Below are positions 39,460 to 55,990 of a stretch of DNA of 64,000 nucleotides, one piece after another (positions within the stretch are counted from its first letter, which is position 1; each line of letters starts with the position of its first letter). The stretch is from an uncultured Pelagibacteraceae bacterium. GTDB lineage: Bacteria > Pseudomonadota > Alphaproteobacteria > Pelagibacterales > Pelagibacteraceae. The position numbers and the translations under genes are program-made. The stretch lies in assembly GCA_902600855.1 (NCBI GenBank), contig CACKKY010000001.1:6851-70850 (forward strand), in the 5' to 3' direction. A model generated the notes under the pieces. It worked only from the letters and a program-made list of their open reading frames with translations. It was not told the origin of the DNA and ran no database searches.

Positions 39460-39460
39460 G

Positions 39461-39841: not shown

Positions 39842-39847
39842 AAATTA

Positions 39848-40765
39848 ATGTCATACAGCTATGTAAAAAATAAATTGGATAGCAATGGAGTTATAGTTTT
39901 AGATGGGGGAATTGGTGGAGAACTGGAAAAGATCGGTGCTATCATGGATAAAGATTTATGGTGCGGGAAATGCTCTGCAGATAATCCTGATAAACTTTTA
40001 AAAGTTCATGAAAATTATATAAATGCAGGTGTAGATGTAATTACTACAAACACTTATGCAACTACTCCTATTTCTATGAAAGAGTATGGTTATGAAAATT
40101 TAACAAATGAATTAAATAAAAAAAGTGTTGAAATAGCAAAACAAGCTGTAAATAATTCTGATAGAGAAATTGCGGTAGCAGGTTCAGTGTCAACGTCTGG
40201 AAGTTGGGATAAATTAGAACAAAGTCAATTAAAGCCTGGATTTACTAAACATTTAAAGATTTTATCAGATGCAGGTGTGGATCTAATTATTTTAGAGGCA
40301 ATGACTGCAAAGAATTCAACTGTTGAGACAATAATTGAATGTTCTTTACAAATTAATTTACCAATATGGTTATCAATATCATGTGCGTTAAATAAAAATG
40401 ATGAAAAATTAATGCATGGCTATCAAGAGAACATTGATAATTCGAAAGCTAAATTCTACGATGATTTTGCAAAATCAATACAACAGTTTAGTAGCGTGCA
40501 TAAGGGTCCTATTTTAGTAGCTCACTCAGATATTAAAGTTACTAAGAATGCAGTTAAAACTATTAAAGAAAATCACAAAGGTATAATTGGAGCTTATCCT
40601 AATAACGGTTATTTTGAAAAACCTAAATGGAAATTAGTTGAGAATATTTCTCCAACAGACTATCTTAACGAAGCTAAATCTTGGGTTTCTAATGGTGCAC
40701 AAATAATTGGAGGTTGTTGTGGTGTAGGTCCAGATTTAATAAAAGCAATTTCAAGTTTAAAATAA
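39848..40765 (+). CDS. Homocysteine S-methyltransferase family protein
   Basis: VLDGGIGGEL, H..YI.AG.DVITTNTY, GAYPN, IIGGCCG. Confidence 0.88.
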   Translation: MSYSYVKNKLDSNGVIVLDGGIGGELEKIGAIMDKDLWCGKCSADNPDKLLKVHENYINAGVDVITTNTYATTPISMKEYGYENLTNELNKKSVEIAKQAVNNSDREIAVAGSVSTSGSWDKLEQSQLKPGFTKHLKILSDAGVDLIILEAMTAKNSTVETIIECSLQINLPIWLSISCALNKNDEKLMHGYQENIDNSKAKFYDDFAKSIQQFSSVHKGPILVAHSDIKVTKNAVKTIKENHKGIIGAYPNNGYFEKPKWKLVENISPTDYLNEAKSWVSNGAQIIGGCCGVGPDLIKAISSLK

Positions 40766-40766
40766 T

Positions 40767-41930
40767 ATGAGTGATAACAAATTAAAAAGTGAACCTAACC
40801 CTACTCTTGTTGTATTAGAAGACAACAAACCTTGGTGGTATTTGCCTAAAACTAGAAGAGAAGGTTATCGAAATCTTCATAAAATTAATAGATACGGACT
40901 GACTTATAGATCTGATCAAGTTTTAACTTTAAATAAAAAATTTAATCAAGAGATCTCAAAAATTCCCTCAGTCCAAAAAATGATTAAACATAAATATTTT
41001 TGCTCTTTATTAGTTGGTAAAGATCAAGACATACTTTTTGAAGAATATGCAAAAGATTTTACCGAAAACACTCCACAAACAATTATGTCAATCACAAAAA
41101 TGTTTGTTAATTTATTTGTTGGAGAACTTGTAGAAAAAAAAGTTCTCGATTTAAATAAGAATATTTCTTTCTATCTACCAAATATTGGCACTGGATACGC
41201 TACAGCTACAGTACAAGATGTTTTAGATATGAATATAGAAAATTCTTATAGTGAAGACTATACAGATCCATATACATCATCTTTTTTGCATGAACCAGTA
41301 TGTGGATGGAGATTGCCTGCTAACTTAGATGAAAAAATGGGACAAGAAGAATTTTTAAATACTATTGAGGCTAACAAAAATAAAGGTTTGAAAAATTCAT
41401 CAGATTTTTCTCATTACAAATCTGCCAATACAGATGTAATTGGTGTTTTAATAGAAAAAATAAGTGATAAAAAATTATCTCAATGGGTTTTAGAGGCTGT
41501 TGAAGCTGCAGGATTTGAAGATGCACTTTATATTGGTACTGACAGATTTAGTATGCCTTGGATATCTGGAGGTGGATGCTTGATTTCAAGAGATTTTTTA
41601 AGATATGGACTATTATTTTCAAGAAAAGGTCTAGGAGTTGGAAATAGAAAAGTTGGATCATCTTTTTTTTTTAATAAAACACTAGAAAATAAGGGCACAA
41701 AGTATATGGAGCTAGCAGCAAATAAGTTTTTATATTATTCAAATTCAACAATGAGATGTGGTAATTGGATAGGTCATTCAGGATTGGGTGGTCAATTTTT
41801 AGCTATAAATTTAAAAACTGGTGTTGTGGCATCGTATTTCTCAGTTATTGATACTGCCTCAGGAACTGATGAAAATTACAAAAAAGATATGATAAATATG
41901 CTAGATGATGTTGTTAACAATAATTTTTAA
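40767..41930 (+). CDS. Beta-lactamase-fold serine hydrolase, NylB (6-aminohexanoate-dimer hydrolase)-like
   Basis: MSITK (SxxK), HYKSANTDVIG, GHSGLGGQ; no signal peptide. Confidence 0.78.
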   Translation: MSDNKLKSEPNPTLVVLEDNKPWWYLPKTRREGYRNLHKINRYGLTYRSDQVLTLNKKFNQEISKIPSVQKMIKHKYFCSLLVGKDQDILFEEYAKDFTENTPQTIMSITKMFVNLFVGELVEKKVLDLNKNISFYLPNIGTGYATATVQDVLDMNIENSYSEDYTDPYTSSFLHEPVCGWRLPANLDEKMGQEEFLNTIEANKNKGLKNSSDFSHYKSANTDVIGVLIEKISDKKLSQWVLEAVEAAGFEDALYIGTDRFSMPWISGGGCLISRDFLRYGLLFSRKGLGVGNRKVGSSFFFNKTLENKGTKYMELAANKFLYYSNSTMRCGNWIGHSGLGGQFLAINLKTGVVASYFSVIDTASGTDENYKKDMINMLDDVVNNNF

Positions 41931-41939
41931 ATATTTTTT

Positions 41940-42929
41940 TTAATTATATTTTTTTATTAGCTCTTTTAAATGTTTGTCATTAACTCCACAACAACCACCA
42001 ATAATTTTAATTTGATCGTCAATTAATTCTTCAAATGAATTAACAAATTCATTTTCAGTAGTTGTAACAATAGCTTTATGAGTGTTAGTATCAAATTTAT
42101 GAATTTCAGGATAAAACATAATTGGTCCATCCCAGTTTTCTTTAATAATCTTTAATCCTTCTTTAGAGTCTTGAAACCATGAATGCATTATTCCATACAC
42201 ATCACCTCCAATACTTGTAAGTGACTTTATAATTTCCTCTATTGGAATAATCTCATCTTCAGGTAGAAATTTGGGTTGTTCTTGATATTTATTTTCATCG
42301 TATATTAATGATTTTTCTTTTTCAGCTCTAAAATTTCGACCAATAACGTTATTATCAAATTTACTTATGCAGCAACTTAGACCAACCCATACTGGTAATC
42401 CAGTTTCCAATGCTGCAGTCAATAATGTTTTTGAATGATCAATATCTAGTAACTGTTCTAAAATTAAAATATCAACTCCAGAATCTTTAAGCAATTTAGC
42501 AGCCTCCTTATAATTTTTTTCCTCTTGTTTATATGTTGGCACATATTTAGGATTTGGAACAAACTCATTTTCTTTTAAAGGAAAAAAATTAGACAAACTT
42601 CCTGCAATTCCAATTTTATTTTCTTTTCCAGTATTACTTAATGCTTTTTTGGCAAGCTCAACTGATTTTAAAATAAATTTATCTGTGTCATCACTACGAT
42701 TTAATGAATCTAGATTATGCCTATTAGTGGCAAAAGTGTTTGCAGTAATAATATCACATCCTGCATTAATAAAATTTTCATGAACCTTAATTACTAAATC
42801 AGGAGAATTTATTGTGGCTAATGCTGAAAAGGCTGGACTCATATCACCACCAAGTCTTGCTATTTCAGAACCATTACCACCATCAAGAAATATTTTTTCT
42901 TTTGATTTTAATTTTTTCTGAAATATCAT
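41940..42929 (-). CDS. Homocysteine S-methyltransferase family protein (second copy)
   Basis: FLDGGNGSEI, HENFINAGCDIITANTF, IIGGCCG. Confidence 0.88.
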   Translation of the reverse strand: MIFQKKLKSKEKIFLDGGNGSEIARLGGDMSPAFSALATINSPDLVIKVHENFINAGCDIITANTFATNRHNLDSLNRSDDTDKFILKSVELAKKALSNTGKENKIGIAGSLSNFFPLKENEFVPNPKYVPTYKQEEKNYKEAAKLLKDSGVDILILEQLLDIDHSKTLLTAALETGLPVWVGLSCCISKFDNNVIGRNFRAEKEKSLIYDENKYQEQPKFLPEDEIIPIEEIIKSLTSIGGDVYGIMHSWFQDSKEGLKIIKENWDGPIMFYPEIHKFDTNTHKAIVTTTENEFVNSFEELIDDQIKIIGGCCGVNDKHLKELIKKYN

Positions 42930-43819
42930 TAAGATTTTTTATTAGGTGCTAAAACAACAGCTAACACTCCACCAATCACAATCAATGAACTTCCTGTAAT
43001 TTCACGCCAACCGAATGGTTCATTGGTAAGTATGCTTGAAGTTATAACTCCAACAACTATTTCGGATAAAAAAAGTATTGAACATAAACCTGCACCAAGT
43101 TTACTTGGTGACCAAAAAATTACTATTCCTGTTGGTATAAAATAAAACACTGAAATAATGATTAAAAATAGTGCCATCGAAACAAAAGCCTCAATTGGTG
43201 GAACCGGACCTAGATATTCTTTAAGAAGAAATCCAGCAACAATATTAAATATACTGCCAAAAAAGAAAAAAGAAAAAATTATCGGGAATACTCCATCTGT
43301 TTTAATAAGTTCAAGACGGACCAAACCAGCAGAGAATAAAGCACCCCCTACAAGTGCTAGCCAGTCACCTGAGTTTTCTGGAAGAGGTATAACTGTTTGT
43401 TTACTAAATACTATCCATAGACCTCCTAAAGCTAAAGATAGAGTCAAAAATCTCTCTATGCCTGGTCTTTTCTTTAAAAATAAAATTTCAAAAATCGTAG
43501 TCCAGATAGGTGTCATATAAAAAAGTATCAATGCACGCACAACGTCTGTCAAAAGAAAGCTTAAAGCATAACAAATAAATCCTCCACCTATCAAAAATCC
43601 AGTAAGTGGTATTTCTAAGCCAGTAGTTTTTCCTTTCGCTTTTCTCCAAATGGCAATTGGGAGCAGAAGTATTACTCCAATTATCATTTGGGATATAGTT
43701 CCCCAGCCTCCAGTTAATCCACCTTCTTCAAGAATTCTTTGTGGTAACCAATATATGCCCCATGCTCCAGCTGATATCGCTAAAGCAATTGCAATCTTAA
43801 AATGATGTGGGTGTCTCAT
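42929..43819 (-). CDS. DMT/EamA-family transporter
   Basis: About 10 TM segments, WGIYW, LFYMTPIW, EIVVG, two EamA repeats. Confidence 0.85.
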   Translation of the reverse strand: MRHPHHFKIAIALAISAGAWGIYWLPQRILEEGGLTGGWGTISQMIIGVILLLPIAIWRKAKGKTTGLEIPLTGFLIGGGFICYALSFLLTDVVRALILFYMTPIWTTIFEILFLKKRPGIERFLTLSLALGGLWIVFSKQTVIPLPENSGDWLALVGGALFSAGLVRLELIKTDGVFPIIFSFFFFGSIFNIVAGFLLKEYLGPVPPIEAFVSMALFLIIISVFYFIPTGIVIFWSPSKLGAGLCSILFLSEIVVGVITSSILTNEPFGWREITGSSLIVIGGVLAVVLAPNKKS

Positions 43820-43821
43820 AA

Positions 43822-45249
43822 TTAAATAATTAATTTTGGTTTGATTTTACTAAAGTTAAAACATTCCTCGTAACTTTTGGCAAATGATAATAATTTTAAA
43901 TCATCAGATTTTTTTGCTATAATTTGCATGCCCATTGGCAATCCTTCTTTATTAAATCCAACAGGAACTGTAATAGTTGGTAAATCAAGTAAACTCGACA
44001 TTATAAATACTTCAATCCATCTATGGTATGTATCTAGTTGTTTTCCATTAATTTGGTCGGGATATTGTAGATTTTTGTCAAACGGGAATACTTGAGCCGA
44101 TGGTAAAATTAAAAAATCATATTTGTTAAACATTTCATCAATTTTTTTGACGCAATCTAACTTCTGTTTCAATGCTTTATCAATATCTTCTTTTTTAACA
44201 TTTTTCCCCTTATTATACTCCCAGATTGCTTGCGATGTCATTTTATTGATATCATCAATTTTCATACTGATGGTATCTTCGAAAATACTTTTTGCTCTTA
44301 AAGTGGTCCAGCTTTCCCATAAATCATTTGAATTTATTTTAGATTTTAAGGGCTCAATTTCTAATTTATGATTATTTAAATCCTTTAATTTATCTTCACA
44401 CATTTCAATTATACCATGTTCAAAATTATATGCCCCATTCAAATCTGACAACCAACAAACTTTTATATTTGAAAATTCAAATTTATTTTTTAAATGTTCT
44501 TTAAAAGATGTGTTTAAACTAATGGAAAATGGATCTAGTGGATCAGCTCCAACGACACAATCTAACAATATACTCATATCCTCAGGTGTTTTTGCAAAAC
44601 ATCCAGGGCTTGTTAAAATAGGAAAATTATCTACTCTATTTTCACTAGATCTATCAGTAGGTATCAATCCAGTAGTTGGTCTAAATCCATAGATATTCGC
44701 ATATGCAGCTGGAGCACGACAAGAGCCCATCATATCTGTTCCGTCTGCAAACGGTAAAAGTCCAGAAGCAACAGCCGAACCTGCCCCACCGCTAGACCCC
44801 GCAGCTGATTTAAAAATATTGTAAGCGTTAGAAGTTGGTCCAAAAAGTCGATTTGTAGTGTGCCCCCCTACTCCAAGTTCTGCAGTATTAGTTTTTCCAA
44901 TAATAATTGCACCATTTTTTTTAAGACGATCTACAATTAACGAATTTTTTTTTGCAATGTTATTTTTAAAATCGGGATACCCATATGTAGAGGGTAATCC
45001 CTCTATATCAAATAGATCTTTACATGCCATTGGTAAACCAGCTAAAGGTTTTTCTTTAATCTGATCTTTTTTATCTATTGAATTTGCTTCATCTAAAATT
45101 TTTCGTTCATCCTCCTGAAGTACTATTGCATTTAAAGTTGAATTATATTTCTTAATTCTCTTAAGATAATATTCTAAGACTTCTTTAACTGAAACTTCTT
45201 TAGATTGTATTAATGAAATTATTTTTGAAATAGATTTATCTTCAAACAT
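43822..45249 (-). CDS. Amidase (amidase-signature family)
   Basis: CKDL (Lys), IIGKTNT, GSSGGAG, GTDMMGSCRAPA (Ser-cisSer-Lys triad). Confidence 0.92.
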   Translation of the reverse strand: MFEDKSISKIISLIQSKEVSVKEVLEYYLKRIKKYNSTLNAIVLQEDERKILDEANSIDKKDQIKEKPLAGLPMACKDLFDIEGLPSTYGYPDFKNNIAKKNSLIVDRLKKNGAIIIGKTNTAELGVGGHTTNRLFGPTSNAYNIFKSAAGSSGGAGSAVASGLLPFADGTDMMGSCRAPAAYANIYGFRPTTGLIPTDRSSENRVDNFPILTSPGCFAKTPEDMSILLDCVVGADPLDPFSISLNTSFKEHLKNKFEFSNIKVCWLSDLNGAYNFEHGIIEMCEDKLKDLNNHKLEIEPLKSKINSNDLWESWTTLRAKSIFEDTISMKIDDINKMTSQAIWEYNKGKNVKKEDIDKALKQKLDCVKKIDEMFNKYDFLILPSAQVFPFDKNLQYPDQINGKQLDTYHRWIEVFIMSSLLDLPTITVPVGFNKEGLPMGMQIIAKKSDDLKLLSFAKSYEECFNFSKIKPKLII

Positions 45250-45259
45250 TAATGCACTT

Positions 45260-46450
45260 TTATCGAGCTTTTTTGATCGATGCTAGTGTCATTTCTTTAA
45301 CTTCCTCTAAAGTTGCTTTTTTAGGATTTTGTCCATAGGCTTGATCTTTCATTGATTTTTCAGCAATTCTATCAACACAATCTTCAGGAACTCCAATTTC
45401 ACTTAAGCTTTTTGGAATATTTATTCTATCTAAAATTTTTTCAATATTCGAGATAAATGCATTAACTGAATGATCTTCAAATTGCATAGCCTCTGACATT
45501 CTTTTAACTTTTTCTTCCATCCCAGGTAAATTATATCTTAAAACAACAGGTAATATAATTGCATTTGTTAAACCGTGATGTGTATTATATTCAGCTCCTA
45601 TCATATGGGCAATTGCATGAACTAAACCTAATCCTTTTAAAAAAGAAATACCTGCTAAACATGATCCAACATGCATCCCGCCTCTTGCAACTAAATTACT
45701 AGGTTCTTCAACTGCAGTAATTAAAGATTTTGAGATTAAAGATAATCCTTCTAAAGCTGCTCCATCACACATAGGATTAAAACCAGGTACACAATAACCT
45801 TCAATTCCATGAATTAGTGCATCTGCTCCAGTCCAAGCTGTTAAATTTGATGGAAGTCCTAATGTTAGTTCTGGATCAATCAACGCTAAAGAAGGTCTTA
45901 CATCTGGATGCCACATACAAAATTTCATGCCTTCTTTTAAATAAGTAACCATAGCTGAAATTTCTGTTTCAGCTCCTGTGCCTGCAGTAGTAGGAATTGT
46001 TATAATTTTTGGAAAAGGATTATCACTACTAATTTTAGGTGGAGTTAATTCAAATTCAAAATCTCTAAGAGGAACATTGTTATTAGCTGTAAGGCATATC
46101 AATTTACCTCCATCCATTGCACTGCCACCACCAATAGCAATAATTGAGTCATGATTTCCATCTTTATATTTTTTACAGCCAGCTGAAACTTCGTCTTCTC
46201 GTGGATTGGGAGATATATCATAAAATAAATCTGAGTTTACATTTGAACTGTTAAGAAAACTTTGTAAATTTACAACAAATGGCAATTTGGGACTTCCCTT
46301 GTCTGTAACTATTAAAGGATTTTTAATATCTAAATTATTACAAATATCACCGATTTCTTTGAGTCTACCTGGTCCATATGCAACATTAGTTGGAAATGTC
46401 CAGTCTTGTTTCGATAAAATGTCAGATTCATTTAGTTTAAAAGGACTCAT
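45260..46450 (-). CDS. Iron-containing alcohol dehydrogenase
   Basis: GGGSAMDGGK, PTTAGTGAE, DALIHGIE, HAIAH, HHGLTN. Confidence 0.93.
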   Translation of the reverse strand: MSPFKLNESDILSKQDWTFPTNVAYGPGRLKEIGDICNNLDIKNPLIVTDKGSPKLPFVVNLQSFLNSSNVNSDLFYDISPNPREDEVSAGCKKYKDGNHDSIIAIGGGSAMDGGKLICLTANNNVPLRDFEFELTPPKISSDNPFPKIITIPTTAGTGAETEISAMVTYLKEGMKFCMWHPDVRPSLALIDPELTLGLPSNLTAWTGADALIHGIEGYCVPGFNPMCDGAALEGLSLISKSLITAVEEPSNLVARGGMHVGSCLAGISFLKGLGLVHAIAHMIGAEYNTHHGLTNAIILPVVLRYNLPGMEEKVKRMSEAMQFEDHSVNAFISNIEKILDRINIPKSLSEIGVPEDCVDRIAEKSMKDQAYGQNPKKATLEEVKEMTLASIKKAR

Positions 46451-46500
46451 TTTATTTGTAAAGTTTATACAATCTTTTTTAAAAAAAGAAATTATTATTT

Positions 46501-47424
46501 ATGTCTCAAAAAGTAGATTTAAAAAAAACTTACCTTGCGATAGTTACTATGCTTTTGGCTGTGTTGTGTGTAGATTTATACATGGTAGTGATTAAATTTT
46601 TAGGTGACGACTATTCTGTTGTTCAGCTAGCTTTATTTAGAAATGCGTCAGCAATTATTCCATTATTCTTATTACTTTTATTCACAAAAGAACATTTTTT
46701 AGTTTTTAAAAATGTAAATAAAAGATTTTACTTTTTAAGCCTTCTTAGAGGTATTTGCTTCTTATCAATGAATATTTTTGTATTTATTTCTGTCATTAAT
46801 TTACAGTTTGCAACTGCAATGACACTTACGTTTTCTTCTCCCTTTTTTATTGTAATTTTGTCAATTATCTTTTTAAGAGATAAAGTTGGGATTTATAGAT
46901 GGTCAGCCGTGATCTTAGGTTTTGTTGGTGTGGTTATGATTATGAAGCCAACTAGTGAAATTTTTAGTTTTTATTCTATTTTTCCTATTCTAACGGCACT
47001 TGCATGGGCTTTATCAGTTATAATTTTAAAATTTATTCCTGAAGGTCATTCAACTGCAAAAATCCAACTCTACACTTTAATCTTTAACGTAATTGGTGCT
47101 GCAGTATTATTTTTATTAACTACAGGTCATATGGAAATACAAAGTTCTAAAGATTTTTGGTTAATGATGCTAACAGGTATATTGGGTGGAACTGCTGCTA
47201 TACTTTTTATCTACTCATATCGTTTAATAGCTGCTAGTAAAATTGCATCATTTGAATATCTTGGTATACCATCATCTTTTATTCTTGGATGGATCTTCTT
47301 CAATGAAGCTCCTTGGGATCAACTTTTTCCAGGTGTTCTTGTAATTATTTTTGCAGGCATGATTATTATTTGGAGAGATAAAGAGAAAAAAAAATCAGTT
47401 AATACGAATAAAAAATTTAATTAA
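46501..47424 (+). CDS. DMT/EamA-family transporter
   Basis: About 10 TM segments, FSSPFF, GFVGV..I.KP, ASFEY. Confidence 0.87.
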   Translation: MSQKVDLKKTYLAIVTMLLAVLCVDLYMVVIKFLGDDYSVVQLALFRNASAIIPLFLLLLFTKEHFLVFKNVNKRFYFLSLLRGICFLSMNIFVFISVINLQFATAMTLTFSSPFFIVILSIIFLRDKVGIYRWSAVILGFVGVVMIMKPTSEIFSFYSIFPILTALAWALSVIILKFIPEGHSTAKIQLYTLIFNVIGAAVLFLLTTGHMEIQSSKDFWLMMLTGILGGTAAILFIYSYRLIAASKIASFEYLGIPSSFILGWIFFNEAPWDQLFPGVLVIIFAGMIIIWRDKEKKKSVNTNKKFN

Positions 47425-48461
47425 GTTTTCATAGATTTCATTATAATTGTACGATCTATTTCACCTAACAATTTACCCGTATCATTACAAATAACAGGAT
47501 GAGCCTTATCTTTTTCACATAATTGATCTATTAATGTTTCAATTTTAGAATTATCTTTTATGCAATCAGATTTTTTTTCAAACATCTTTTTTGTTTCTTC
47601 ACAACACTCTACTCTCATAACTTTTCCTGCGCTAAGGACTTTGTACTTAGGAACATCTTCACAAAAATCTTTCACATATTGGTCTACTGGATTTGCAACT
47701 ATTTCTTCAGGAGTTCCAACTTGAGAAATTTCTCCATCTTTCATGATTGCAATATGGTCCCCCATTTTTATTGCTTCTAAAAAATCGTGAGTGATAAATA
47801 CCATTGTTCTTTGTAATTTCTGTTGAATATCTAATAATTCATCTTGCATCTCTCTTCTGATTAATGGGTCTAATGCTGAAAAAGGCTCATCAAAGATTAA
47901 TATTTCAGGATCAACTGCCATTGCTCTTGCCAACCCTACTCTTTGTTGCATTCCCCCAGATAATTCTCTTGGATAATTATTATGCCAACCTTCAAGGCCT
48001 ACCATTTTTAAAACTTCCATGGATTTATCTGTTCTTTCTTGTTTTTTTGTGCCTCTAATTTCTAGGCCATAACCAATATTTTCTAAAACTGTTCGATGAG
48101 GGAACAGTCCAAAATGTTGAAAAACCATACTCATTTTATTTCTTCTTAAATCTAATAATTCACTTGTGCCCATTTTTGTGACATCTTGATCATCCATCAT
48201 TACTGTGCCTGAAGTTGGCTCAATTAATCTAGTAAGACATCTAACTAAGGTAGATTTGCCACTTCCTGATAAACCCATTACAACAAATGTTTCGCCCTTT
48301 TGAATTGAAAAACTTACATCTTTTACTGCAACAACATGGCCTGTTTTTAGTTGAACTTCATTTCTTGATAATCCTGAGTCTAAGTCTTTTAAAACTCTTT
48401 TTTCATCAGGTCCAAATAGTTTCCAAACATTTGAACATGTAATTTTTGCGTTATTACTCAT
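47421..48461 (-). CDS. Glycine betaine/proline-type ABC transporter ATP-binding subunit (ProV/OpuAA-like)
   Basis: GLSGSGKST, MVFQHFGLFPH, LSGGMQQRVGLARA, DEPFSALDPLIR. Confidence 0.95.
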   Translation of the reverse strand: MSNNAKITCSNVWKLFGPDEKRVLKDLDSGLSRNEVQLKTGHVVAVKDVSFSIQKGETFVVMGLSGSGKSTLVRCLTRLIEPTSGTVMMDDQDVTKMGTSELLDLRRNKMSMVFQHFGLFPHRTVLENIGYGLEIRGTKKQERTDKSMEVLKMVGLEGWHNNYPRELSGGMQQRVGLARAMAVDPEILIFDEPFSALDPLIRREMQDELLDIQQKLQRTMVFITHDFLEAIKMGDHIAIMKDGEISQVGTPEEIVANPVDQYVKDFCEDVPKYKVLSAGKVMRVECCEETKKMFEKKSDCIKDNSKIETLIDQLCEKDKAHPVICNDTGKLLGEIDRTIIMKSMKT

Positions 48462-48542
48462 ACTTAATTCATTATTTAATTACTGAAATAGACAATATTT
48501 TTCTTTAAATGTAAAATAATATATTTTAGTTTATAGCTTATT

Positions 48543-50666
48543 ATGTCTAGTTCCACAGAATTACTTACAAAACCTAATAATCCAAAAAAGGTAGTTTCGT
48601 ATGCGTTAATTTTGTTAACTTTTTTAGTAGCTTTATGGTTATCAACTCAGAGTGAAGGACCATCAAAATTCCCTAAAGTTGTAACAGATGAGTTTAAATT
48701 TACAGCTTGGGTAAATGATGGTGAAAGTTATCTTAAAAAAAATTATAGATGGATAACAAAAATTATAGCAAACTATATTAAAGAAGGTTATTTTTTTCTT
48801 GAAGATTTCTTTTTAGACTCACCTTGGATTTTAATCGCAGCAATAATGATATTACCGTGTTTGATAGCTGGTGGTTTGAGGCTAGGTTTGTATGCATGTT
48901 TCGTAATTTACTTTTGGGGCGCGGTAGGTATGTGGGATGAGTCACTACAAACTGTTGCTTTGATGGGTTTATCAGTATTATTATGTGTATTTTTTGGAGT
49001 GACCTTGGGAGTTCTTTGTTCTCAAAGTGATAGGTTTGAAAACTTCATGAAACCTATTTTAGACACTATGCAGGTTATGCCAGCATTTGTTTATTTATTT
49101 CCAGCATTATTTTTTTTTGGAATAGGTGGTGCTCCAGCAATATTAGCAACCATGATTTATGCTATGCCTCCTATTATAAGATTAACTAACACAGGTATAA
49201 GACAGGTTTCTAAAGAGTCAATTGAATCTGCAACATCATTTGGATCAAGTAAATTACAACTTTTATTTAAAATAAAAATTCCTTTATCACTACCAAGCAT
49301 AATGATGGGAGTTAACCAGGTAATAATGATGGCACTTGCTTTAGTTGTGTTAGCTTGTTTTATTGGTGCTGAAGGTATTGGAGGTCAAGTCTGGTTAGCA
49401 ATTAGAAACTTAGATGTTGGATGGGCCATGGAGGGGGGATTATGTATTCTTTTTATGGCTATTATGTTTGATAGATTTAGTTTGGCTTTTAGTAAAGAAC
49501 CTGAAACACTTCCTTTAGATGTTCAAAAATTTTATTTACTGCCTCAAAGTTGGGAAAAATATCAAGTGGCACGAATTATTGAAAAACCACTTAGTTTATT
49601 AAGTTATTTTACTGATCTAATTTGTACAAAAATTACAAATTTAATAGCTTATATTTTTGCTCTAGTTGTTTCTTTAATTAATAAATCAAGTGCTTTAGAT
49701 GTTGGAGATTTTATAAGTAAAAAATACTATTTAATACCATCTTTAATAATTTTATTTTTGATATCTTTTATTGATAGTACATTTTTTGAATTTGGTACAT
49801 TTCCAAAAGAGTGGAAGCTATCTTTAAGGCAGCCTATTGCAAACGGTGTTGAGTCATTAACTGTCAATGAAAGCTTTATTGCATTCACAAAAGGATTGAG
49901 AGGATTTGTATATTTAAAATTACTTAAACCACTTGATACGTTTTTAACCCATATACCTTGGTGGTATACAATGGGAATTTTTGTTGTTATTGGCTACTTT
50001 ACTGTAGGTTTAAGGTTCGCGTTTATTACATTTCTTTTGCTTCTTTTTATTGGAGCTTGTGGAATTTGGACTCAATCCATGGTTACCCTATCTTCAGTTT
50101 TAGTTTCTGTAGCATTATGTTTTGCGCTTGGAGTTCCATTGGGAATTATTGCATCCTATAACGAAAGATTTAGAAATATTCAAAACGTAGTATTAGATGC
50201 TATGCAAACATTACCTTACTTTTGCTATTTAATACCTGTATTAATGTTTTTTGGTGGCGGAATAGTTTCGGCGGTGCTTGCAACTGTCGTTTATTCTATT
50301 CCACCAATTATAAGACTAACATCCTTGGGTTTAACTCAAGTATCTGGATCGTATTCTGAAGTTTCAAGGTCTTTTGGAGGTACGTTAATGCAAACTCTTA
50401 AAAAAGTTAAATTCCCACTAGCAGTTCCAAGTTTAGTAATTGGATTTAATCAAACAGTTATTATGGCATTTGCTATGCAAATAGTTACTCCATTAATTGG
50501 AGGTAAAGGTTTAGGTCTTGAAGTATTTAATGGCTTAGCAAGGTCTGATACTGGAAGAGGGCTTGCAGCAGGCATCGGAATTGTTCTCTTAGCAATTATC
50601 ATAGATAGAATTAGTCTCGCTTGGACTAGAAAACAAAGATTAGCATTAGGTTTATCTAAAAATTAA
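48543..50666 (+). CDS. Betaine-type ABC permease with two fused ProW-like domains
   Basis: Two repeats: LDTMQVMPAFVYL..PPIIRLT..GVNQ and LDAMQTLPYFCYL..PPIIRLT..GFNQ; 707 aa. Confidence 0.92.
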   Translation: MSSSTELLTKPNNPKKVVSYALILLTFLVALWLSTQSEGPSKFPKVVTDEFKFTAWVNDGESYLKKNYRWITKIIANYIKEGYFFLEDFFLDSPWILIAAIMILPCLIAGGLRLGLYACFVIYFWGAVGMWDESLQTVALMGLSVLLCVFFGVTLGVLCSQSDRFENFMKPILDTMQVMPAFVYLFPALFFFGIGGAPAILATMIYAMPPIIRLTNTGIRQVSKESIESATSFGSSKLQLLFKIKIPLSLPSIMMGVNQVIMMALALVVLACFIGAEGIGGQVWLAIRNLDVGWAMEGGLCILFMAIMFDRFSLAFSKEPETLPLDVQKFYLLPQSWEKYQVARIIEKPLSLLSYFTDLICTKITNLIAYIFALVVSLINKSSALDVGDFISKKYYLIPSLIILFLISFIDSTFFEFGTFPKEWKLSLRQPIANGVESLTVNESFIAFTKGLRGFVYLKLLKPLDTFLTHIPWWYTMGIFVVIGYFTVGLRFAFITFLLLLFIGACGIWTQSMVTLSSVLVSVALCFALGVPLGIIASYNERFRNIQNVVLDAMQTLPYFCYLIPVLMFFGGGIVSAVLATVVYSIPPIIRLTSLGLTQVSGSYSEVSRSFGGTLMQTLKKVKFPLAVPSLVIGFNQTVIMAFAMQIVTPLIGGKGLGLEVFNGLARSDTGRGLAAGIGIVLLAIIIDRISLAWTRKQRLALGLSKN

Positions 50667-50667
50667 A

Positions 50668-52998
50668 ATGGCCGGTTCTAAAGGTCTACCATTAACAAGT
50701 TCACATTGGGGAACATATAGAGCTAAAGTAGAAAATGGTAAAGTATCTGAACTTGTAGGATGGGAACATGATAATGACCCTTCACCTATCGGACCTGGAA
50801 TTTTAGATGTTCAACATGGACCAACCCGCATTGATGCACCAATGGTTCGTAAAAGTTGGTTAGAGAATGGACCAGGTAGTAAAAATGAATTAAGAGGAAT
50901 AGATCCTTTTATTGAAGTAAGTTGGGATAAAGCTAACAAGTTAGTGGCTGAAGAGTTTAAAAGAGTGATAAATAATTTTGGAAACTCTTCTATTTTTGGA
51001 GGATCATATGGCTGGGCTAGTGCTGGAAGGTTTCATCATGCTCAAAGCCAGCTTCATCGATTTCTTAATTGTATAGGTGGATATACAAGATCAAAATTTA
51101 CGTATAGTTTTGCTGCTGCAGAGGCAATGGTTCCACATATACTTGGGAGTTACAGAGCCTATCTTGATACTTGTACTAGTTGGGATTTAATTAAAAAACA
51201 TACAAAATTATTTGTTTGTTTTGGAGGAGTGCCTATTAAAAATAGTCAAATTTGCCAAGGTGGAACGGGTAGCCATTATCAACGTGAAAGTTTAATTAAT
51301 GCAGGTAATAATGGTATTGAATTTATCAACATAAGTCCTCTAAAATCTGATTTAATTGATGAAGTTAAAGGTGAGTGGTTAGCTGCCAGACCTAATACTG
51401 ATACAGCACTAATGTTAGGTATTGCTCATACACTTCATATTGAGGGGTTAAGTGATAAAAAGTTTTTAGAAAATTACACCGAGGGTTTTGATATTTTTCT
51501 ACCTTATCTTTTAGGTACTAATGACGGTATAGAAAAAAATGCAGAATGGGCTTCTAAAATTTGTGACATTTCAGTGGATAAAATTAAAGATCTTGCAAGA
51601 CGTATGGTATCAGATCGTACAATGATTTCGGTAAGTTGGTCATTAACTCGTCAGGATCATGGTGAGCAACCTTTTTGGATGGCTATAATGTTAGCTTCCA
51701 TGATTGGACAAATAGGGTTACCTGGAGGTGGATTTGGATTTGGTTACAGTGCTACAAACCATATTGGAGGAAAATTTAAGATTTTACCAGGTGCTGCATT
51801 TCCACAAGCAAAAAATGAGATAGAAAATTTTATTCCTGTTGCAAGGATAAGTGATTTATTACTTAAAGCTGGAGAGCGTTTTGATTTTGATGGAAGTTCA
51901 TACGTGTATCCTGATACTAAAATAGTATACTGGGCTGGTGGAAATCCGTTTCATCATCATCAAGATCTAAATCGTTTGATTAAAGCATGGGAAAAACCAG
52001 ACACAATTATATCTAACGATTGGTGTTGGAATACTCTTGCTAAGAGATCAGATATCGTTTTGCCTTGCACAACTCCACTTGAAAGAAATGATATAATGAT
52101 GACACCTCGAGATCCATATGTAGTATCTATGTCAAAATTAGTTGATCCCTATGGTCAAGCTAAAAATGACTTTGAAATTTTTAAAGGTATAGCTAAAAAA
52201 ATGGGAGTAGAGGAAAAATTTACTGAAGGTCGAAGTGAAGAAGAATGGCAAAAATGGATTTATAATCAAACATACGAACGAGCAACAGCTGATAATATTG
52301 ATGTGCCTAGTTATGAGAAATTCAGAGAAGAAAGATGGTTTAAGATAAAAGATCCGACCGAATCAACTTTAATGCTTAAAGATTTTAGAAAAGATCCAAT
52401 CAAAAATCCTCTAAGTACTCCAAGTGGTAAAATAGAGATATATTCTAAGACAGTTGCAGACTTTGGTTATGATGACTGTCCGGGGCATCCTGTGTGGATA
52501 GAGCCGTGTGAATGGTTAGGAATGAAAAATAAAACTTATCCACTTCATTTAATTTCAAATCAACCTAAAAATAAATTACACAGTCAGATGGATCATGGGA
52601 AATATAGTAAATCTTTCAAAATTAAAGATAGAGAACCTCTAGAGATTAGCCCAAATGATGCAAAAGAACGTAACTTAAAAAATGGTGATATAGTGAAATT
52701 ATTTAATGATCGAGGAGCTTGTCTAGCAGGTGTAATTATTAATGACAAAGTAAGACCTGGGGTAGTTCAAATTAGTACCGGGGCGTGGTATGATCCAGAA
52801 GATCCTAAAAAACCTAATAGTCTTTGCAAGCATGGTAATCCTAATGTTTTAACTCCCGATAAAGGAACCTCAAAACTTGGACAAGGTCCCATTGCGCATT
52901 CTTGTCTTATTGAGATAGAGAAATACACGAGTATTTTGCCAAAAGTTACAGCTCATGAACCACCAAAAATAATTAGGGGAAATAAAAAAATAAGTTAA
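50668..52998 (+). CDS. Mo-bisPGD oxidoreductase, BisC/DorA/TorA (DMSO reductase type III) family, cytoplasmic
   Basis: SSHWG start, FGGSYGWASAG, TYS (Ser ligand), RQDHGEQ, GGNPFHHHQD, TPSGKIEI, LHSQ; no Tat RR leader and no FeS motif. Confidence 0.9.
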   Translation: MAGSKGLPLTSSHWGTYRAKVENGKVSELVGWEHDNDPSPIGPGILDVQHGPTRIDAPMVRKSWLENGPGSKNELRGIDPFIEVSWDKANKLVAEEFKRVINNFGNSSIFGGSYGWASAGRFHHAQSQLHRFLNCIGGYTRSKFTYSFAAAEAMVPHILGSYRAYLDTCTSWDLIKKHTKLFVCFGGVPIKNSQICQGGTGSHYQRESLINAGNNGIEFINISPLKSDLIDEVKGEWLAARPNTDTALMLGIAHTLHIEGLSDKKFLENYTEGFDIFLPYLLGTNDGIEKNAEWASKICDISVDKIKDLARRMVSDRTMISVSWSLTRQDHGEQPFWMAIMLASMIGQIGLPGGGFGFGYSATNHIGGKFKILPGAAFPQAKNEIENFIPVARISDLLLKAGERFDFDGSSYVYPDTKIVYWAGGNPFHHHQDLNRLIKAWEKPDTIISNDWCWNTLAKRSDIVLPCTTPLERNDIMMTPRDPYVVSMSKLVDPYGQAKNDFEIFKGIAKKMGVEEKFTEGRSEEEWQKWIYNQTYERATADNIDVPSYEKFREERWFKIKDPTESTLMLKDFRKDPIKNPLSTPSGKIEIYSKTVADFGYDDCPGHPVWIEPCEWLGMKNKTYPLHLISNQPKNKLHSQMDHGKYSKSFKIKDREPLEISPNDAKERNLKNGDIVKLFNDRGACLAGVIINDKVRPGVVQISTGAWYDPEDPKKPNSLCKHGNPNVLTPDKGTSKLGQGPIAHSCLIEIEKYTSILPKVTAHEPPKIIRGNKKIS

Positions 52999-53006
52999 AA
53001 AAATAA

Positions 53007-54185
53007 ATGGGAAATCTTCAAGAAATATCTGATCTAAAAAAAACAATAAAAATAAGTGCGCGTAGATTTGAAGAGTCTCCTTATATTGACAGAACTAATT
53101 GTGCAGAAATGGTTCGAGGTGTATATGCGGGAAGATATTTTGCAATGTCTCTAGGAGAGGATCCTATCCAAAAATATTGGTTGTTAAGACAAAAAGCTGC
53201 AATTTTTGATGTACCTGAAAAACCAGTTGAAATATCCGGACCAGACTCAATTCCATTTTTAGATAAGGTAATGACTAGAAAAGTTACTTCAATTAAAGAA
53301 GGTAGAGGATATTACTCATTAGCATGCACTCATCAAGGTGGAATCTTTATGGATGGAGTAATTTTTAAATTTAATGATAACAAATTTTGGTATGTGCAAG
53401 CTGATGGTCCTTTTGAAGATTGGTTATTAGCTCATAGTGGAGGATTTGATGTAAAAATTTCAGATCCAAAATCAAGAGTACTTCAAATACAAGGTCCAGC
53501 ATCAATTGATATAATGAAAGCAGCATCTAATGGAAAGATCGATGAAAACATGCCTTATTATAGATCTGGATTTTTTGATCTTGGTGGACAAAAACTTTAT
53601 GTTTCTAGATCTGGTTTTACTAATGAGCTTGGTTTTGAAATTTACTCAGATGGATCTACAACAAATCATTTAGCTCTATGGGATCATCTTATGGAGTGTG
53701 GAAAACCATTTGGAATGGAACTTTCTGCAACAAGAGCAATGACGATAAGAAGAATTGAAGCTGGAATTTTTGGAAACTTAACAGATATTGACACTTCAAT
53801 TAATCCTTTTGAGGCTGGTTTAGGTTTTTGTGTTAACATGGATAAAGGAGATTTTATAGGTCGAGAAGCTTTATTAAAAAAAGACACTAGAACTTGTTTA
53901 CTTGGTATCACATGTAAAACTGAAACTCCAGTATCTTCAAGTAAAGTAATTTATGAAGATAAAATTGTTGGTCATATTACAGCTGGTGTTCATTCTCCTA
54001 CCCTAAATACTGGTATAGGATATGTGAGGTTTTACAAACCAAACGATTGGTCAGGTAAAGAATTAACTCTTCAATTACCTGATGGCAGTTTACACAAAGG
54101 TGAAATTGTTAATCTACCCTTTTTTGATAAAGAAAAAAAAATAGTAAAAGGAATTGATAGAACAATACCTTCTAGGACAAAATAA
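53007..54185 (+). CDS. GcvT-family aminomethyltransferase/demethylase, DmdA-like
   Basis: SARRFEESPY, FDV...VEISGPD, LQIQGP, SRSGFTNELGFEIY, RRIEAG, NPFEAGLG; single domain. Confidence 0.88.
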   Translation: MGNLQEISDLKKTIKISARRFEESPYIDRTNCAEMVRGVYAGRYFAMSLGEDPIQKYWLLRQKAAIFDVPEKPVEISGPDSIPFLDKVMTRKVTSIKEGRGYYSLACTHQGGIFMDGVIFKFNDNKFWYVQADGPFEDWLLAHSGGFDVKISDPKSRVLQIQGPASIDIMKAASNGKIDENMPYYRSGFFDLGGQKLYVSRSGFTNELGFEIYSDGSTTNHLALWDHLMECGKPFGMELSATRAMTIRRIEAGIFGNLTDIDTSINPFEAGLGFCVNMDKGDFIGREALLKKDTRTCLLGITCKTETPVSSSKVIYEDKIVGHITAGVHSPTLNTGIGYVRFYKPNDWSGKELTLQLPDGSLHKGEIVNLPFFDKEKKIVKGIDRTIPSRTK

Positions 54186-54292
54186 TTAGCAAAATTAAGC
54201 CAAATATGGCTAATTTCTCTATTTCATATGTGCTGAAACAAAAAATCACACCTCAAAATAAGTAAAAACTTAAAATTTTGATATTTATAAAG

Positions 54293-54348
54293 TTTACATA
54301 CGTCTATTTTTTGAATTAAAATGCTTTTTTTAATTAATTAAATAGGAG
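54293..54348 (+). promoter_or_regulatory. Putative own promoter and SD of the substrate-binding protein gene
   Basis: TTTACA (54293)-18 nt-TAAAAT (54317); AGGAG at 54344-54348. Confidence 0.45.
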
Positions 54349-54353
54349 ATTAA

Positions 54354-55367
54354 ATGAAGTTAACTAAAAGAATATCAGCGCTGATATTATCTTTTGTCCT
54401 AATATTAGGTGGTCTAACTCAAGCTAATGCTGCTAAAAGATTAACAGCTGCAGTTGCTGATTGGACTGGAGGAGAGATATCTTGTCAAGTTGCTGTAACT
54501 ATGCTTGAAGAAGAGCTAGGATACAAAATCAAAAGAGTTGTATTTCCTTCAGGAACTGGCTTATGGGAAGCTATTGCTGCTGGAGAAATTGACTTTGCTT
54601 GTGAAAGTTGGCCAAGTTATGCAGAAGCAGACTCAGTAATGATGAATGAAGATCTGATTTACGAAGGAGAAGTAGTTGGCACTTATAATGGTGACGGTAG
54701 TATCGATTTATTAGGTACTGTAGGTGTTATCGGTATGTCAGATTACTATATCCCTAGATATGCTGCTGAAAGCTTGGGTATTAAATCATGGAAGGATTTA
54801 AACAAACACAAAGATAAGTTTGCAACAATAGAAACTGGTAGTAAAGGAAGATTAATTGCATGTCCAGTAGCTGGTTGGAACTGTCATGACCAAAAAAGAC
54901 TTGATCTTTTAGGAATTGATTTCCAAGCGGACGAACTAGGTACTGAAGCAGCAGCAGTAGCTGAAGCAGTAGCAGCTTACAAAAGAAAAGAGCCATTCTT
55001 ACTTTACTTATGGGAGCCACATTGGTTCTTTGGTGCTTATGATATGGTTGGTGTAGGTTTACCAGAACACAAAGTTTGTGATCCTGATACTTTTACTGAA
55101 GCTGGAAACTGGAAAGATTGTGGAACTAAAGGCTGGCCAGCAACTGGTTGGGCTAAAGACTACACAATGAACTACGGTAACCCTGCTACTTTTGCAAAAC
55201 CAGAACATGCAAAAGCTAAGGAATTTTTTGAATTAATGTCATTTCAAAATGCAGACCAAGCAGTAATGTTAGTTGAAGTTAAACAAAAAAATAGAGACTT
55301 AAAAGAAGTAGTTAAAGAATGGAAAGATGCTAATCCTGATAAGTGGAAAAGCTGGATTCCTAAATAA
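54354..55367 (+). CDS. Betaine/TMAO-type ABC substrate-binding protein (ProX/TmoX-like)
   Basis: Signal peptide ending ANA-A, DWTG, ESW, ACPVAGWNC, LYLWEPHW; Trp-rich pocket. Confidence 0.88.
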   Translation: MKLTKRISALILSFVLILGGLTQANAAKRLTAAVADWTGGEISCQVAVTMLEEELGYKIKRVVFPSGTGLWEAIAAGEIDFACESWPSYAEADSVMMNEDLIYEGEVVGTYNGDGSIDLLGTVGVIGMSDYYIPRYAAESLGIKSWKDLNKHKDKFATIETGSKGRLIACPVAGWNCHDQKRLDLLGIDFQADELGTEAAAVAEAVAAYKRKEPFLLYLWEPHWFFGAYDMVGVGLPEHKVCDPDTFTEAGNWKDCGTKGWPATGWAKDYTMNYGNPATFAKPEHAKAKEFFELMSFQNADQAVMLVEVKQKNRDLKEVVKEWKDANPDKWKSWIPK

Positions 55368-55386
55368 TCTTTAAGTTAAAATTATT

Positions 55387-55420
55387 AAAAAGGGCTTTGA
55401 TTTTCAGAGCCCTTTTTTTT
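55387..55420. terminator. Bidirectional intrinsic terminator between the SBP gene and rpoZ
   Basis: AAAAA-GGGCTTTGA-TTT-TCAGAGCCC-TTTTTTTT between convergent genes. Confidence 0.85.
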
Positions 55421-55428
55421 GGGGATTA

Positions 55429-55947: not shown

Positions 55948-55953
55948 GCGCAG

Positions 55954-55982
55954 TATCTATACAGGGATAATTTAAAAATCAA
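55954..55982 (-). promoter_or_regulatory. Putative leaderless rpoZ promoter
   Basis: Minus strand TTGATT-17 nt-TAGATA-6 nt-ATG. Confidence 0.45.
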
Positions 55983-55990
55983 GGGGAATT

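What the first reader, a model, noticed from the sequence alone, without database searches (positions are those of the whole stretch)
47421..55420. Candidate new pathway: import, reduction and demethylation of an oxidised methyl-onium compound (ABC + cytoplasmic S-oxide reductase + DmdA-like demethylase)
Seen: a betaine-type permease, a Mo-bisPGD reductase and a GcvT-family gene are almost abutting (1 and 8 nt gaps), followed by a ProX/TmoX-like binding protein, with the ATPase divergent. Known: BisC/DorA enzymes reduce S- and N-oxides, DmdA/GcvT enzymes move methyl groups to THF, and SAR11 needs exogenous reduced sulfur. Inference: the module imports an oxidised zwitterionic osmolyte (for example dimethylsulfoxonium propionate DMSOP, a methionine or S-methylcysteine sulfoxide, or an N-oxide betaine), reduces it in the cytoplasm and demethylates it. 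That would open an oxidised sulfur/methyl pool to SAR11. I do not recognise this combination as a described pathway.
Basis: partly seen in the sequence, partly recalled or inferred. Interest (0 to 1): 0.85.

Follow-up and report, generated by a model that had tools for sequence, protein, structure and literature searches.

The report
Methyl-sulfoxide salvage cassette in SAR11 importer
Some ocean SAR11 bacteria carry two extra enzyme genes inside a betaine-type uptake system, and versions of the same gene island that lack them mostly carry a different sulfoxide reductase instead, so the pair likely strips a methyl group from a still unidentified methylated sulfur compound and reduces its sulfoxide.

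Summary
The five genes are real and arranged as described. The molybdenum enzyme (BisC/DorA family, no export signal) lies directly upstream of this GcvT clade in 87 of 99 informative loci from several marine lineages, beside two SBP families only 26-29% identical. The five genes are not one fixed unit. In 300 Pelagibacter genomes the SBP occurs in 55 and the GcvT in 9; without the pair, permease and SBP abut. New here: islands lacking the pair carry an extra MsrA-family sulfoxide reductase (40 of 47 genomes); islands with it do not (0 of 11). This is probably only one or a few evolutionary events, but it points to a methyl sulfoxide rather than an N-oxide or arsenic compound. The GcvT is not DmdA, and carriers also have DmdA and TmoX, so reducing DMSOP to DMSP first would make it redundant. 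Best reading (0.4): demethylate a dimethyl-sulfonium or -sulfoxonium compound to folate, then reduce the methyl sulfoxide. The substrate is unproven. Ten literature searches found no description. The scan noted this cassette before on three other genomes.

The parts
47421..48461 (-). ProV-subfamily ABC ATPase of the betaine-type importer, divergent
   Evidence: TIGR01186 367 bits over cut-off 326.6
48489..48517 (+). sigma-70-like site (10 of 12) upstream of the permease; a consensus match only
   Evidence: 32 sites found against 40.7 expected, so not significant by count
48543..50666 (+). fused double ProW-type permease, 707 aa
   Evidence: two BPD_transp_1 stretches; ChoW and ProW models
50668..52998 (+). 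Mo-bisPGD S/N-oxide reductase of the BisC/DorA/TorA family, no export signal; Y114, W116, S147, Y165, Y360 kept; clade motif RSKFTYSF and R163
53007..54185 (+). stand-alone GcvT-fold folate-dependent C1 transferase of an unnamed clade; not DmdA, GcvT or Tdm
54198..54211 (.). short hairpin scored as terminator-like on both strands between GcvT and SBP
   Evidence: 5 found against 4.3 expected, so weak
54293..54322 (+). sigma-70-like site (10 of 12) upstream of the SBP, suggesting a promoter of its own; a consensus match only
54354..55367 (+). ProX/TmoX-fold substrate-binding protein, a paralogue distinct from TmoX; aromatic cage W37, W86, Y218, W220
38026..47424 (.). left arm of the host island: aldehyde dehydrogenase, VOC protein, homocysteine S-methyltransferase-family gene, beta-lactamase-like hydrolase, second methyltransferase, EamA, amidase, Fe-alcohol dehydrogenase, EamA; inherited with the importer with or without the pair
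40765..40767 (+). junction between methyltransferase and hydrolase genes where pair-less islands carry an MsrA paralogue; empty here

Best explanation
The Mo and GcvT genes are a two-gene cassette sitting between permease and SBP of a betaine-type importer, and they likely act in sequence on an imported methylated sulfur compound, the GcvT protein predicted to move a methyl group to tetrahydrofolate and the Mo enzyme predicted to reduce the resulting methyl sulfoxide to a thioether. Shown: gene identities, linkage, presence and absence within the importer, and exchange with an MsrA paralogue. Inferred: a cationic dimethyl-sulfoxonium or -sulfonium substrate, the order demethylate then reduce, oxidation of the methyl group for energy by the folate C1 pathway, and recovery of reduced sulfur. 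Named candidates: DMSOP (to 3-methylsulfinylpropionate, then MMPA), or the two-carbon series (sulfocholine, dimethylsulfonioacetate and their oxides), which would also explain the BetI-type regulator, choline dehydrogenase-type oxidase, aldehyde dehydrogenase and CitE-like lyase nearby. The electron donor is unknown, as for BisC.
For: Mo directly upstream of the GcvT in 26 of 26 SAR11-like, 33 of 33 f30-like and 28 of 40 other informative loci (groups set by identity thresholds, some loci redundant). The pair persists beside two SBP families only 26-29% identical. Mo and GcvT distances correlate (rho 0.83, 28 loci, 0 of 2000 permutations; shared ancestry contributes). An extra MsrA (TIGR00401 150 bits over cut-off 108.1) is in 40 of 47 SBP-positive pair-negative genomes and 0 of 11 with the pair; at the island junction 22 of 23 against 0 of 9; 0 of 5 further pair-bearing genomes, at least one a repeat. 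MsrA reduces methyl (S)-sulfoxides (established knowledge; PMC13488963 passages) and Dor/Tor-type enzymes are S-sulfoxide specific (PMC8166771 passages). Y114, W116 and S147 are kept. DmdA is present in carriers, so a dedicated paralogue implies a substrate other than DMSP. The one island with neither reductase has a DMSP-lyase-type cupin at that place (L338). A SELENBP1-type protein (methanethiol oxidase family) follows the CitE-like gene in 2 loci. DmdA does not accept DMSA, and a DMSA demethylation route is unidentified (PMC7221440, section 3.3). Whether DMSOP can be demethylated is stated as open (PMC10686828, passages).
Against: No ligand, activity or product was measured. The left-arm genes beside the MsrA site form one clade in pair-bearing islands (support 1.0), so the exchange may be a single event, and the Fisher P of 1e-7 overstates it. 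MsrA beside a homocysteine methyltransferase may simply serve methionine repair. The island MsrA has changed residues (GCFWD, loss of the conserved Asp), so its activity is not certain. Twelve loci on at least four branches have the GcvT without the Mo gene upstream, yet keep nearly the same motif residues. The GcvT has Val and Phe where DmdA has S122 and W197, so methyl rather than methylene transfer is not established. DMSOP is 0.1-1% of DMSP in most samples (PMC10686828). Many neighbours are nitrogen-betaine genes (carnitine dehydrogenase, BKACE, butyrobetaine hydroxylase-like, MttB, DMG dehydrogenase-like).
Confidence: 0.4

Rival explanations
1. Co-regulated but not coupled. The Mo enzyme is a BisC-like salvage reductase for free methionine sulfoxide or another methyl sulfoxide, interchangeable with MsrA. 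The GcvT separately demethylates a non-oxidised onium compound (DMSA, gonyol, S-methylmethionine or a betaine) that the importer brings in.
For: GcvT without the Mo gene upstream in 12 of 40 other loci, including a close sister of a Mo-linked copy (L083 and L082). The genomes behind L085 and L091 gave no match and that behind L083 only a 46% paralogue (incomplete assemblies). A source names close homologues 'biotin/methionine sulfoxide reductase'. BisC reduces free MetSO (PMC7759655, passages). MsrA lies next to a homocysteine methyltransferase.
Against: The two genes are present or absent together between permease and SBP in Pelagibacter and stay adjacent in loci of very different G+C content and beside two different transporters. 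Other BisC-like enzymes of the class have no GcvT neighbour (28 of 29 loci). The MtsZ residues that bind the MetSO side chain (R166, H182) are Q126 and S142 here.
Confidence: 0.25
2. One reading: the importer takes up an oxidised compound, the Mo enzyme reduces it, and the GcvT demethylates the reduced form.
For: Gene order permease-Mo-GcvT. Mo-less GcvT loci fit a GcvT that acts on the reduced compound, with the Mo gene as an optional front end.
Against: For DMSOP the product is DMSP, already served by DmdA in these genomes. Reducing a neutral sulfoxide gives a thioether, a poor methyl donor for folate (established chemistry; LigM acts on aryl ethers). Known Dor/BisC and MsrA substrates are neutral sulfoxides, not sulfoxonium cations (PMC8166771 passages; recalled). 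The same SBP serves genomes without the Mo gene.
Confidence: 0.2
3. The substrate is a nitrogen or arsenic compound: an amine N-oxide or choline/carnitine-type betaine, or arsenobetaine, arsenocholine or a dimethylarsinoyl compound demethylated by alternating methyl transfer and oxo transfer.
For: The SBP's closest solved relative is TmoX. BetI-type repressor, choline dehydrogenase, carnitine dehydrogenase and BKACE neighbours. A SAR11 strain oxidises the methyl groups of dimethylarsenate by unknown genes (PMC6426599, passages).
Against: Exchange with MsrA, which is not known to reduce N-oxides or As-oxides (recalled). Carriers hold their own TmoX and Tdm-sized GcvT fusions. No arsenic-resistance family among the 182 neighbour proteins sent to Pfam, and the VOC neighbour lacks the cysteine pair of ArsI (motif recalled).
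Confidence: 0.1
4. The two proteins form a split, redox-neutral demethylase like Tdm: the Mo enzyme rearranges a methyl S- or N-oxide to a formaldehyde equivalent that the GcvT captures as methylene-THF.
For: No electron-donor gene in the operon. The order oxidoreductase then GcvT mirrors Tdm, DMG dehydrogenase and sarcosine oxidase, whose GcvT domains are top fold matches. T-protein-like Val130 and Asp116.
Against: BisC also lacks a partner gene (PMC7759655, passages). The active site is that of an oxo-transferring reductase. The GcvT occurs without the Mo gene. MsrA could not replace such a function.
Confidence: 0.05

Closest known systems
DmdA, DMSP:THF methyltransferase (P. ubique, PDB 3TFH; NF009133)
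   Same: Stand-alone GcvT fold (Z 41.8, rmsd 1.9 over 356 residues); best PDB sequence match (E 1.6e-40); E204 and Y206 equivalents kept (E211, Y213).
   Different: 29-30% identity; 169 bits against cut-off 410; separate clade; W197 is Phe and S122 is Val; carriers have a true DmdA elsewhere.
BisC, DorA and MtsZ S/N-oxide reductases (TIGR00509; PDB 1EU1, 7L5I)
   Same: Ser-ligated Mo-bisPGD site with Tyr114 and Trp116; cytoplasmic and without a partner gene, like BisC.
   Different: 39-40% identical to E. coli BisC, TorZ and TorA; own clade inside a signal-less alphaproteobacterial group; D145 is Thr and W196 is Gln; conserved K143 and R163; linked to a GcvT and an importer.
TmoXWV importer with Tdm (TMAO uptake and demethylation; PDB 4XZ6, 9Q59)
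   Same: Betaine-type ABC importer with an aromatic-cage SBP and a folate-linked GcvT domain for methyl removal.
   Different: The SBP is 22-23% identical to SAR11 TmoX orthologues, which carriers also have; TmoX E131 is Ser129; the GcvT has no DUF1989 fusion; an oxide reductase is present.
Arctic SAR11 glycine-betaine island (PMC12421898)
   Same: Shares gene families with the host island: aldehyde dehydrogenase, VOC, GDPD, butyrobetaine hydroxylase-like, alcohol dehydrogenase, carnitine dehydrogenase, BKACE, a betaine-type ABC system.
   Different: Main text and the one supplement held contain no 'sulfoxide', 'molybd' or 'aminomethyltransferase'. L081 holds this importer and a second one (SBP 23% identical) side by side, so the published ABC system may be the other; not tested.

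Membership tests
BisC/DorA/TorA S/N-oxide reductases | Ser ligand to Mo (DorA S147) | tested here: met
   S147 aligns with 1EU1 S147 and is kept in all clade rows
BisC/DorA/TorA S/N-oxide reductases | Catalytic Tyr114 and Trp116 (Tyr absent in TorA) | tested here: met
   GSYGW motif; roles from PMC8166771 passages
BisC/DorA/TorA S/N-oxide reductases | Score above the TIGR00509 cut-off | tested here: not met
   966 against 1017.55 over the full profile, E 1e-290; a near miss
DorA/TorA respiratory reductases | Tat signal and partner cytochrome gene | tested here: not met
   No twin-arginine leader in any clade member; no cytochrome gene in the loci
MtsZ-type methionine sulfoxide reductase | R166 and H182 side-chain pocket | tested here: not met
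   Equivalent positions are Q126 and S142
Rhodobacter BisC-like group 3 | Clusters with R. sphaeroides BisC | not tested
   No reference sequence was at hand; the clade groups apart from E. coli BisC, TorZ and TorA
BisC/DorA/TorA S/N-oxide reductases | Reduces an S- or N-oxide | not testable with these tools
   Needs an assay
DmdA | Score above the NF009133 cut-off | tested here: not met
   169 against 410; the genome's own DmdA scores 550
DmdA | DMSP-site Trp (W197) and folate-site Ser (S122) | tested here: not met
   F203 and V130. PMC7487153 passages name a Trp as key for DMSP; the role of S122 is recalled
DmdA | Folate-binding Glu and Tyr (E204, Y206) | tested here: met
   E211 and Y213
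DmdA | Forms 5-methyl-THF from a sulfonium compound | not testable with these tools
   Needs an assay
Tdm (TMAO demethylase) | DUF1989 domain fused to GcvT | tested here: not met
   392 aa with GCV_T domains only; 188 against cut-off 1100
TmoX | Orthology with TmoX | tested here: not met
   Separate clade; two complete carrier genomes hold a TmoX-type SBP elsewhere
TmoX/ProX onium-binding proteins | Aromatic cage for methyl groups | tested here: met
   W37, W86, Y218, W220 align with 4XZ6 W55, W102, F220, W222; the cage role of these residues is recalled
ProV-subfamily ABC importer | ATPase above the TIGR01186 cut-off, with permease and SBP | tested here: met
MsrA (island paralogue in pair-less genomes) | Score above TIGR00401 and catalytic Cys, Trp, Tyr, Glu | tested here: met
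   150 against 108.1; GCFW, TY and GHIE motifs kept, conserved Asp changed

The most novel reading that the evidence does not exclude
This is the missing demethylation route for dimethylsulfoxonium compounds such as DMSOP: a dedicated folate-dependent sulfoxonium demethylase yields a methyl sulfoxide, which a Mo enzyme (or, in other lineages, a specialised MsrA) reduces to the thioether, feeding methyl energy and reduced sulfur to SAR11, the f30 family and roseobacters without release of DMSO or DMS.
Probability: 0.2. Interest if true: 0.88.

Novelty: new variant of a known kind. Interest (0 to 1): 0.66.

Why it matters
SAR11 cells need reduced sulfur and gain energy from methyl groups, and enzymes for several abundant algal sulfur zwitterions are unidentified: a DMSA demethylation route is reported without genes (PMC7221440) and DMSOP demethylation is an open question (PMC10686828). 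This cassette supplies two purifiable candidate enzymes and a binding protein, with a comparative clue (the MsrA exchange) that narrows the test panel to methyl sulfoxides. The importer is in about 18% of sampled Pelagibacter genomes, and the GcvT orthologue in 43 of 71 genomes of a second streamlined marine family, so the flux could matter for ocean sulfur budgets.

Tried and rejected
Rfam scan of the window: 0 matches, so no riboswitch clue; no tRNA at the island. Promoter and terminator counts do not exceed shuffles. Fold searches gave only the expected folds and do not separate DmdA from T-protein or DMG dehydrogenase domains (Z 41.8-43.5), nor name a ligand for the SBP. The ESM Atlas gave only generic names. 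MoaC was not found in the 57% complete genome, but MoeA is there and in two complete carriers, with a formate dehydrogenase, so cofactor supply is no obstacle. MtoX above cut-off in 0 of 5 genomes: no support from methanethiol oxidase in SAR11 or f30. Arsenic reading: no ars families among neighbours, VOC without the ArsI cysteine pair. TMAO reading: TmoX and Tdm-sized genes lie elsewhere. The first estimate that the whole module is very rare (Mo in 2 of 300 family genomes) holds for the pair, not for the importer. RNA runs: 24 listed, all with small shares; contigs cannot rank genes or prove transcription, so depth was not used. Roseobacter plasmids with a 60% Mo homologue and a 36% GcvT 11 kb apart are a different arrangement and were not counted. 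No complex prediction was run, as binding is not claimed. Literature searches with no description of the pairing: (served the MtsZ residues). The DmdA structure paper was not held.
Full report
Observation. The SBP follows after 168 nt that hold a weak hairpin and a promoter-like site (counts not above shuffles). The window is about 30% G+C. Close relatives of its genes lie in records titled Pelagibacteraceae; the genome is 57% complete.

The Mo enzyme. It matches DorA over its full length (E 7e-214) and scores 966 against the BisC-family cut-off of 1017.55. It keeps S147, Y114, W116, Y165 and Y360, which line the Dor/Tor site (PMC8166771, passages), and has no leader peptide. In a tree of 54 representatives the GcvT-linked copies form one clade (support 1.0, with L095 next to it) inside a signal-less group, apart from E. 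coli BisC, TorZ and TorA. All 20 clade rows shown have Lys or Arg at 143 and Arg at 163, which may suit an anionic substrate (inference). MoeA is present in the genome and in two complete carriers. BisC too has no partner gene and its donor is unknown (PMC7759655, passages).

The GcvT protein. It is a stand-alone GcvT fold (model pLDDT 92), best matched in sequence by DmdA but far below the DmdA, GcvT and Tdm cut-offs. It forms its own clade among uncharacterised stand-alone paralogues. It keeps E211 and Y213 but has Phe and Val at DmdA W197 and S122. The genome has its own DmdA (550 bits), and 4 of 5 tested f30 carriers have a protein above the DmdA cut-off.

The SBP. It has the ProX/TmoX fold and aromatic cage but is 22-23% identical to the SAR11 TmoX orthologues, which two complete carriers also hold. 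TmoX E131 is Ser129 here (role recalled).

Linkage. A scan of genome contigs gave 102 relatives, of which 80 were returned; a partial scan of metagenome contigs (10 of 64 parts) gave 80 more loci, of which the 43 closest were mapped. Of 106 loci with a GcvT at least 60% identical, 99 have 400 nt or more upstream, and 87 of these have the Mo gene directly upstream: 26 of 26 SAR11-like, 33 of 33 f30-like, 28 of 40 others (groups by identity, some loci redundant). The others include records titled Rhodobacteraceae, Planktomarina, Halieaceae and Gammaproteobacteria, where a second SBP family (26-29% identical) serves. In 400 genomes across the class, 61 hold a BisC-like enzyme, and only the one above 60% identity has this GcvT beside it among 29 loci fetched. 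So the pairing is clade-specific. In family f30, 43 of 71 genomes hold the GcvT orthologue at 73% or more (counted from the table).

Against a fixed five-gene unit. In one even sample of 300 Pelagibacter genomes, 55 have the SBP orthologue and 9 the GcvT orthologue, 8 of them both. In 26 of 29 fetched SBP loci the permease directly precedes the SBP. SBPs with and without the pair are up to 97% identical, interleave in the tree and share binding-site columns. The importer belongs to a larger island (aldehyde dehydrogenase, VOC protein, two homocysteine S-methyltransferase-family genes, two hydrolases, Fe-alcohol dehydrogenase, two EamA, often carnitine-type genes) that is kept either way. Conversely, 12 loci on at least four branches have the GcvT without the Mo gene upstream. 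Pair-bearing genomes in this sample overlap with loci, so the two counts are not independent.

The MsrA exchange. Pair-less islands carry a 150-aa gene between the first methyltransferase and the hydrolase. It is an MsrA (PF01625; TIGR00401 above cut-off), about 50-57% identical to the housekeeping copy, with the catalytic Cys, Trp, Tyr and Glu kept and a conserved Asp changed. Among 80 genomes searched it is in 40 of 47 SBP-positive pair-negative genomes, 0 of 11 SBP-positive pair-positive, 0 of 1 with the GcvT only, 1 of 12 SBP-negative controls and 0 of 9 f30 genomes. Where the junction is visible the count is 22 of 23 against 0 of 9; the exception has a DMSP-lyase-type cupin there. Five more carriers lack it, one a repeat. 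Caution: the genes flanking this site are monophyletic in pair-bearing islands, so this may be one event, although the genes between the two sites, 9 kb apart, are shuffled between the two types. A CitE-like lyase lies in 8 of 9 pair-bearing left arms (not in this window) and in none of the pair-less ones.

Mechanism. Two unrelated (S)-sulfoxide reductases alternating in one island suggest that the island must reduce a neutral methyl sulfoxide. A methyltransferase plus such a reductase is the minimal set for a dimethylsulfoxonium compound: methyl transfer from the cation leaves a methyl sulfoxide, and reduction gives the thioether. The reverse order would turn DMSOP into DMSP, which DmdA already handles, or a neutral sulfoxide into a thioether, a poor donor for folate. 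With a plain sulfonium substrate the reductase would instead rescue oxidised product or co-imported oxide. In other lineages the neighbours are a BetI-type repressor (8 of 45 loci), a choline dehydrogenase-type oxidase (12), Fe-alcohol dehydrogenase (11), aldehyde dehydrogenase (10), the CitE-like lyase (13) and a VOC protein (8). These fit a choline-like sulfur alcohol oxidised to a DMSA-type acid, but fit nitrogen betaines as well. All steps after gene identity and distribution are inferred. I give 0.4 to the coupled demethylate-then-reduce reading, 0.25 to co-regulated but uncoupled enzymes, 0.2 to reduce-first, 0.1 to nitrogen or arsenic substrates and 0.05 to a split Tdm-like enzyme.

Expression. 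Contigs from four RNA-labelled runs of four studies lie on all five genes at 85% likeness or more, and one 476-nt contig spans the Mo-GcvT junction. Contigs cannot show strand, level or a single transcript.

Literature. PMC10686828 (passages): strain HTCC1062 uses DMSOP and DMSO as sulfur sources, DMSOP is 0.1-1% of DMSP in most samples, and whether DmdA demethylates DMSOP is left open. PMC7221440 (abstract and section 3.3): R. pomeroyi releases methanethiol from DMSA by an unidentified route. PMC3160333 (passages): four aminomethyltransferases in HTCC1062, two of unknown substrate. PMC13360808 (passages): a 2026 review that mentions only cleavage of DMSOP in the passages seen. PMC6426599, PMC7487153, PMC13488963, PMC5069961 and PMC8547437: passages only. 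PMC12421898 (passages and one supplement) and PMC10734472 (term search) do not mention these enzymes. Nine searches aimed at the pairing or its candidate substrates found no description; the library lacks most subscription papers, and supplements of the other papers were not read and could list these genes. The scan's own notes record the cassette on three other genomes and the pair-less importer on a fourth; I tested their main claims here. The MsrA exchange was not among the notes returned.

Verdict. A real, conserved and apparently undescribed enzyme pair built from new clades of known families, riding in an importer that mostly lacks it. It works like DmdA- or Tdm-type methyl scavenging but is a member of neither. 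New variant of a known kind; interest 0.66.

Noticed in passing
L332:3982-4437 and equivalents in 40 Pelagibacter genomes: Island-specific MsrA paralogue with a GCFWD motif and a changed conserved Asp, found only where the Mo-GcvT pair is missing; possibly specialised for a small methyl sulfoxide.
   Followed up: yes
window 39848-40765 and 41940-42929: Two homocysteine S-methyltransferase-family genes keep the GGCC motif but show His where the first zinc cysteine is expected (motif recalled); all NCBIfam scores are below cut-off. A 66% orthologue of the second lies in an operon with the GcvT clade and the second importer in L224 and L225.
   Followed up: partly
L338:12942-13535; L215:12365-13003: DMSP-lyase-type cupin (PF16867) at the MsrA site in one island, and near the GcvT clade in two metagenome loci.
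   Followed up: partly
G000:C4:49224-50405 and 55113-56336 (L006, L145; L289 in G126): A second protein of a type that scores above the DmdA cut-off (521 bits for L176) and another stand-alone GcvT paralogue, 5 kb apart, with a TPP enzyme, an FMN dehydrogenase and a thiolase between or beside them; absent from G008.
   Followed up: partly
G000:C4:26692-34609: Carnitine-type cluster (GMC oxidase, CitE-like lyase, BKACE, carnitine dehydrogenase, SDR) on another contig; in other genomes these genes adjoin the importer.
   Followed up: partly
L197:13218-27797, L199:10292-24865 (Phaeobacter and Tritonibacter plasmids): A 60% Mo homologue after a CoA ligase, with crotonase, TRAP transporter, aldehyde dehydrogenase and a 36-38% GcvT: a second Mo-plus-GcvT catabolic island of different make-up.
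   Followed up: partly
L085:236-3467, L238:4860-8237, L248:14508-17786: A recurring GMC oxidase-VOC-second GcvT triple beside the BetI-type regulator, suggesting a second demethylation branch.
   Followed up: partly
L085:15455-16804; L088 after 12407: SELENBP1-type protein (PF05694) directly after the CitE-like gene in two lineages.
   Followed up: partly
L089:11275-17720, L090, L223: F420 biosynthesis genes and a luciferase-like oxidoreductase next to the Mo-GcvT pair.
   Followed up: no
window 30715-37999; L037:14077-15573: Malonyl-CoA decarboxylase, TRAP transporter and class III CoA transferase left of the island; a malonyl-CoA synthase follows the SBP in f30-like loci.
   Followed up: no
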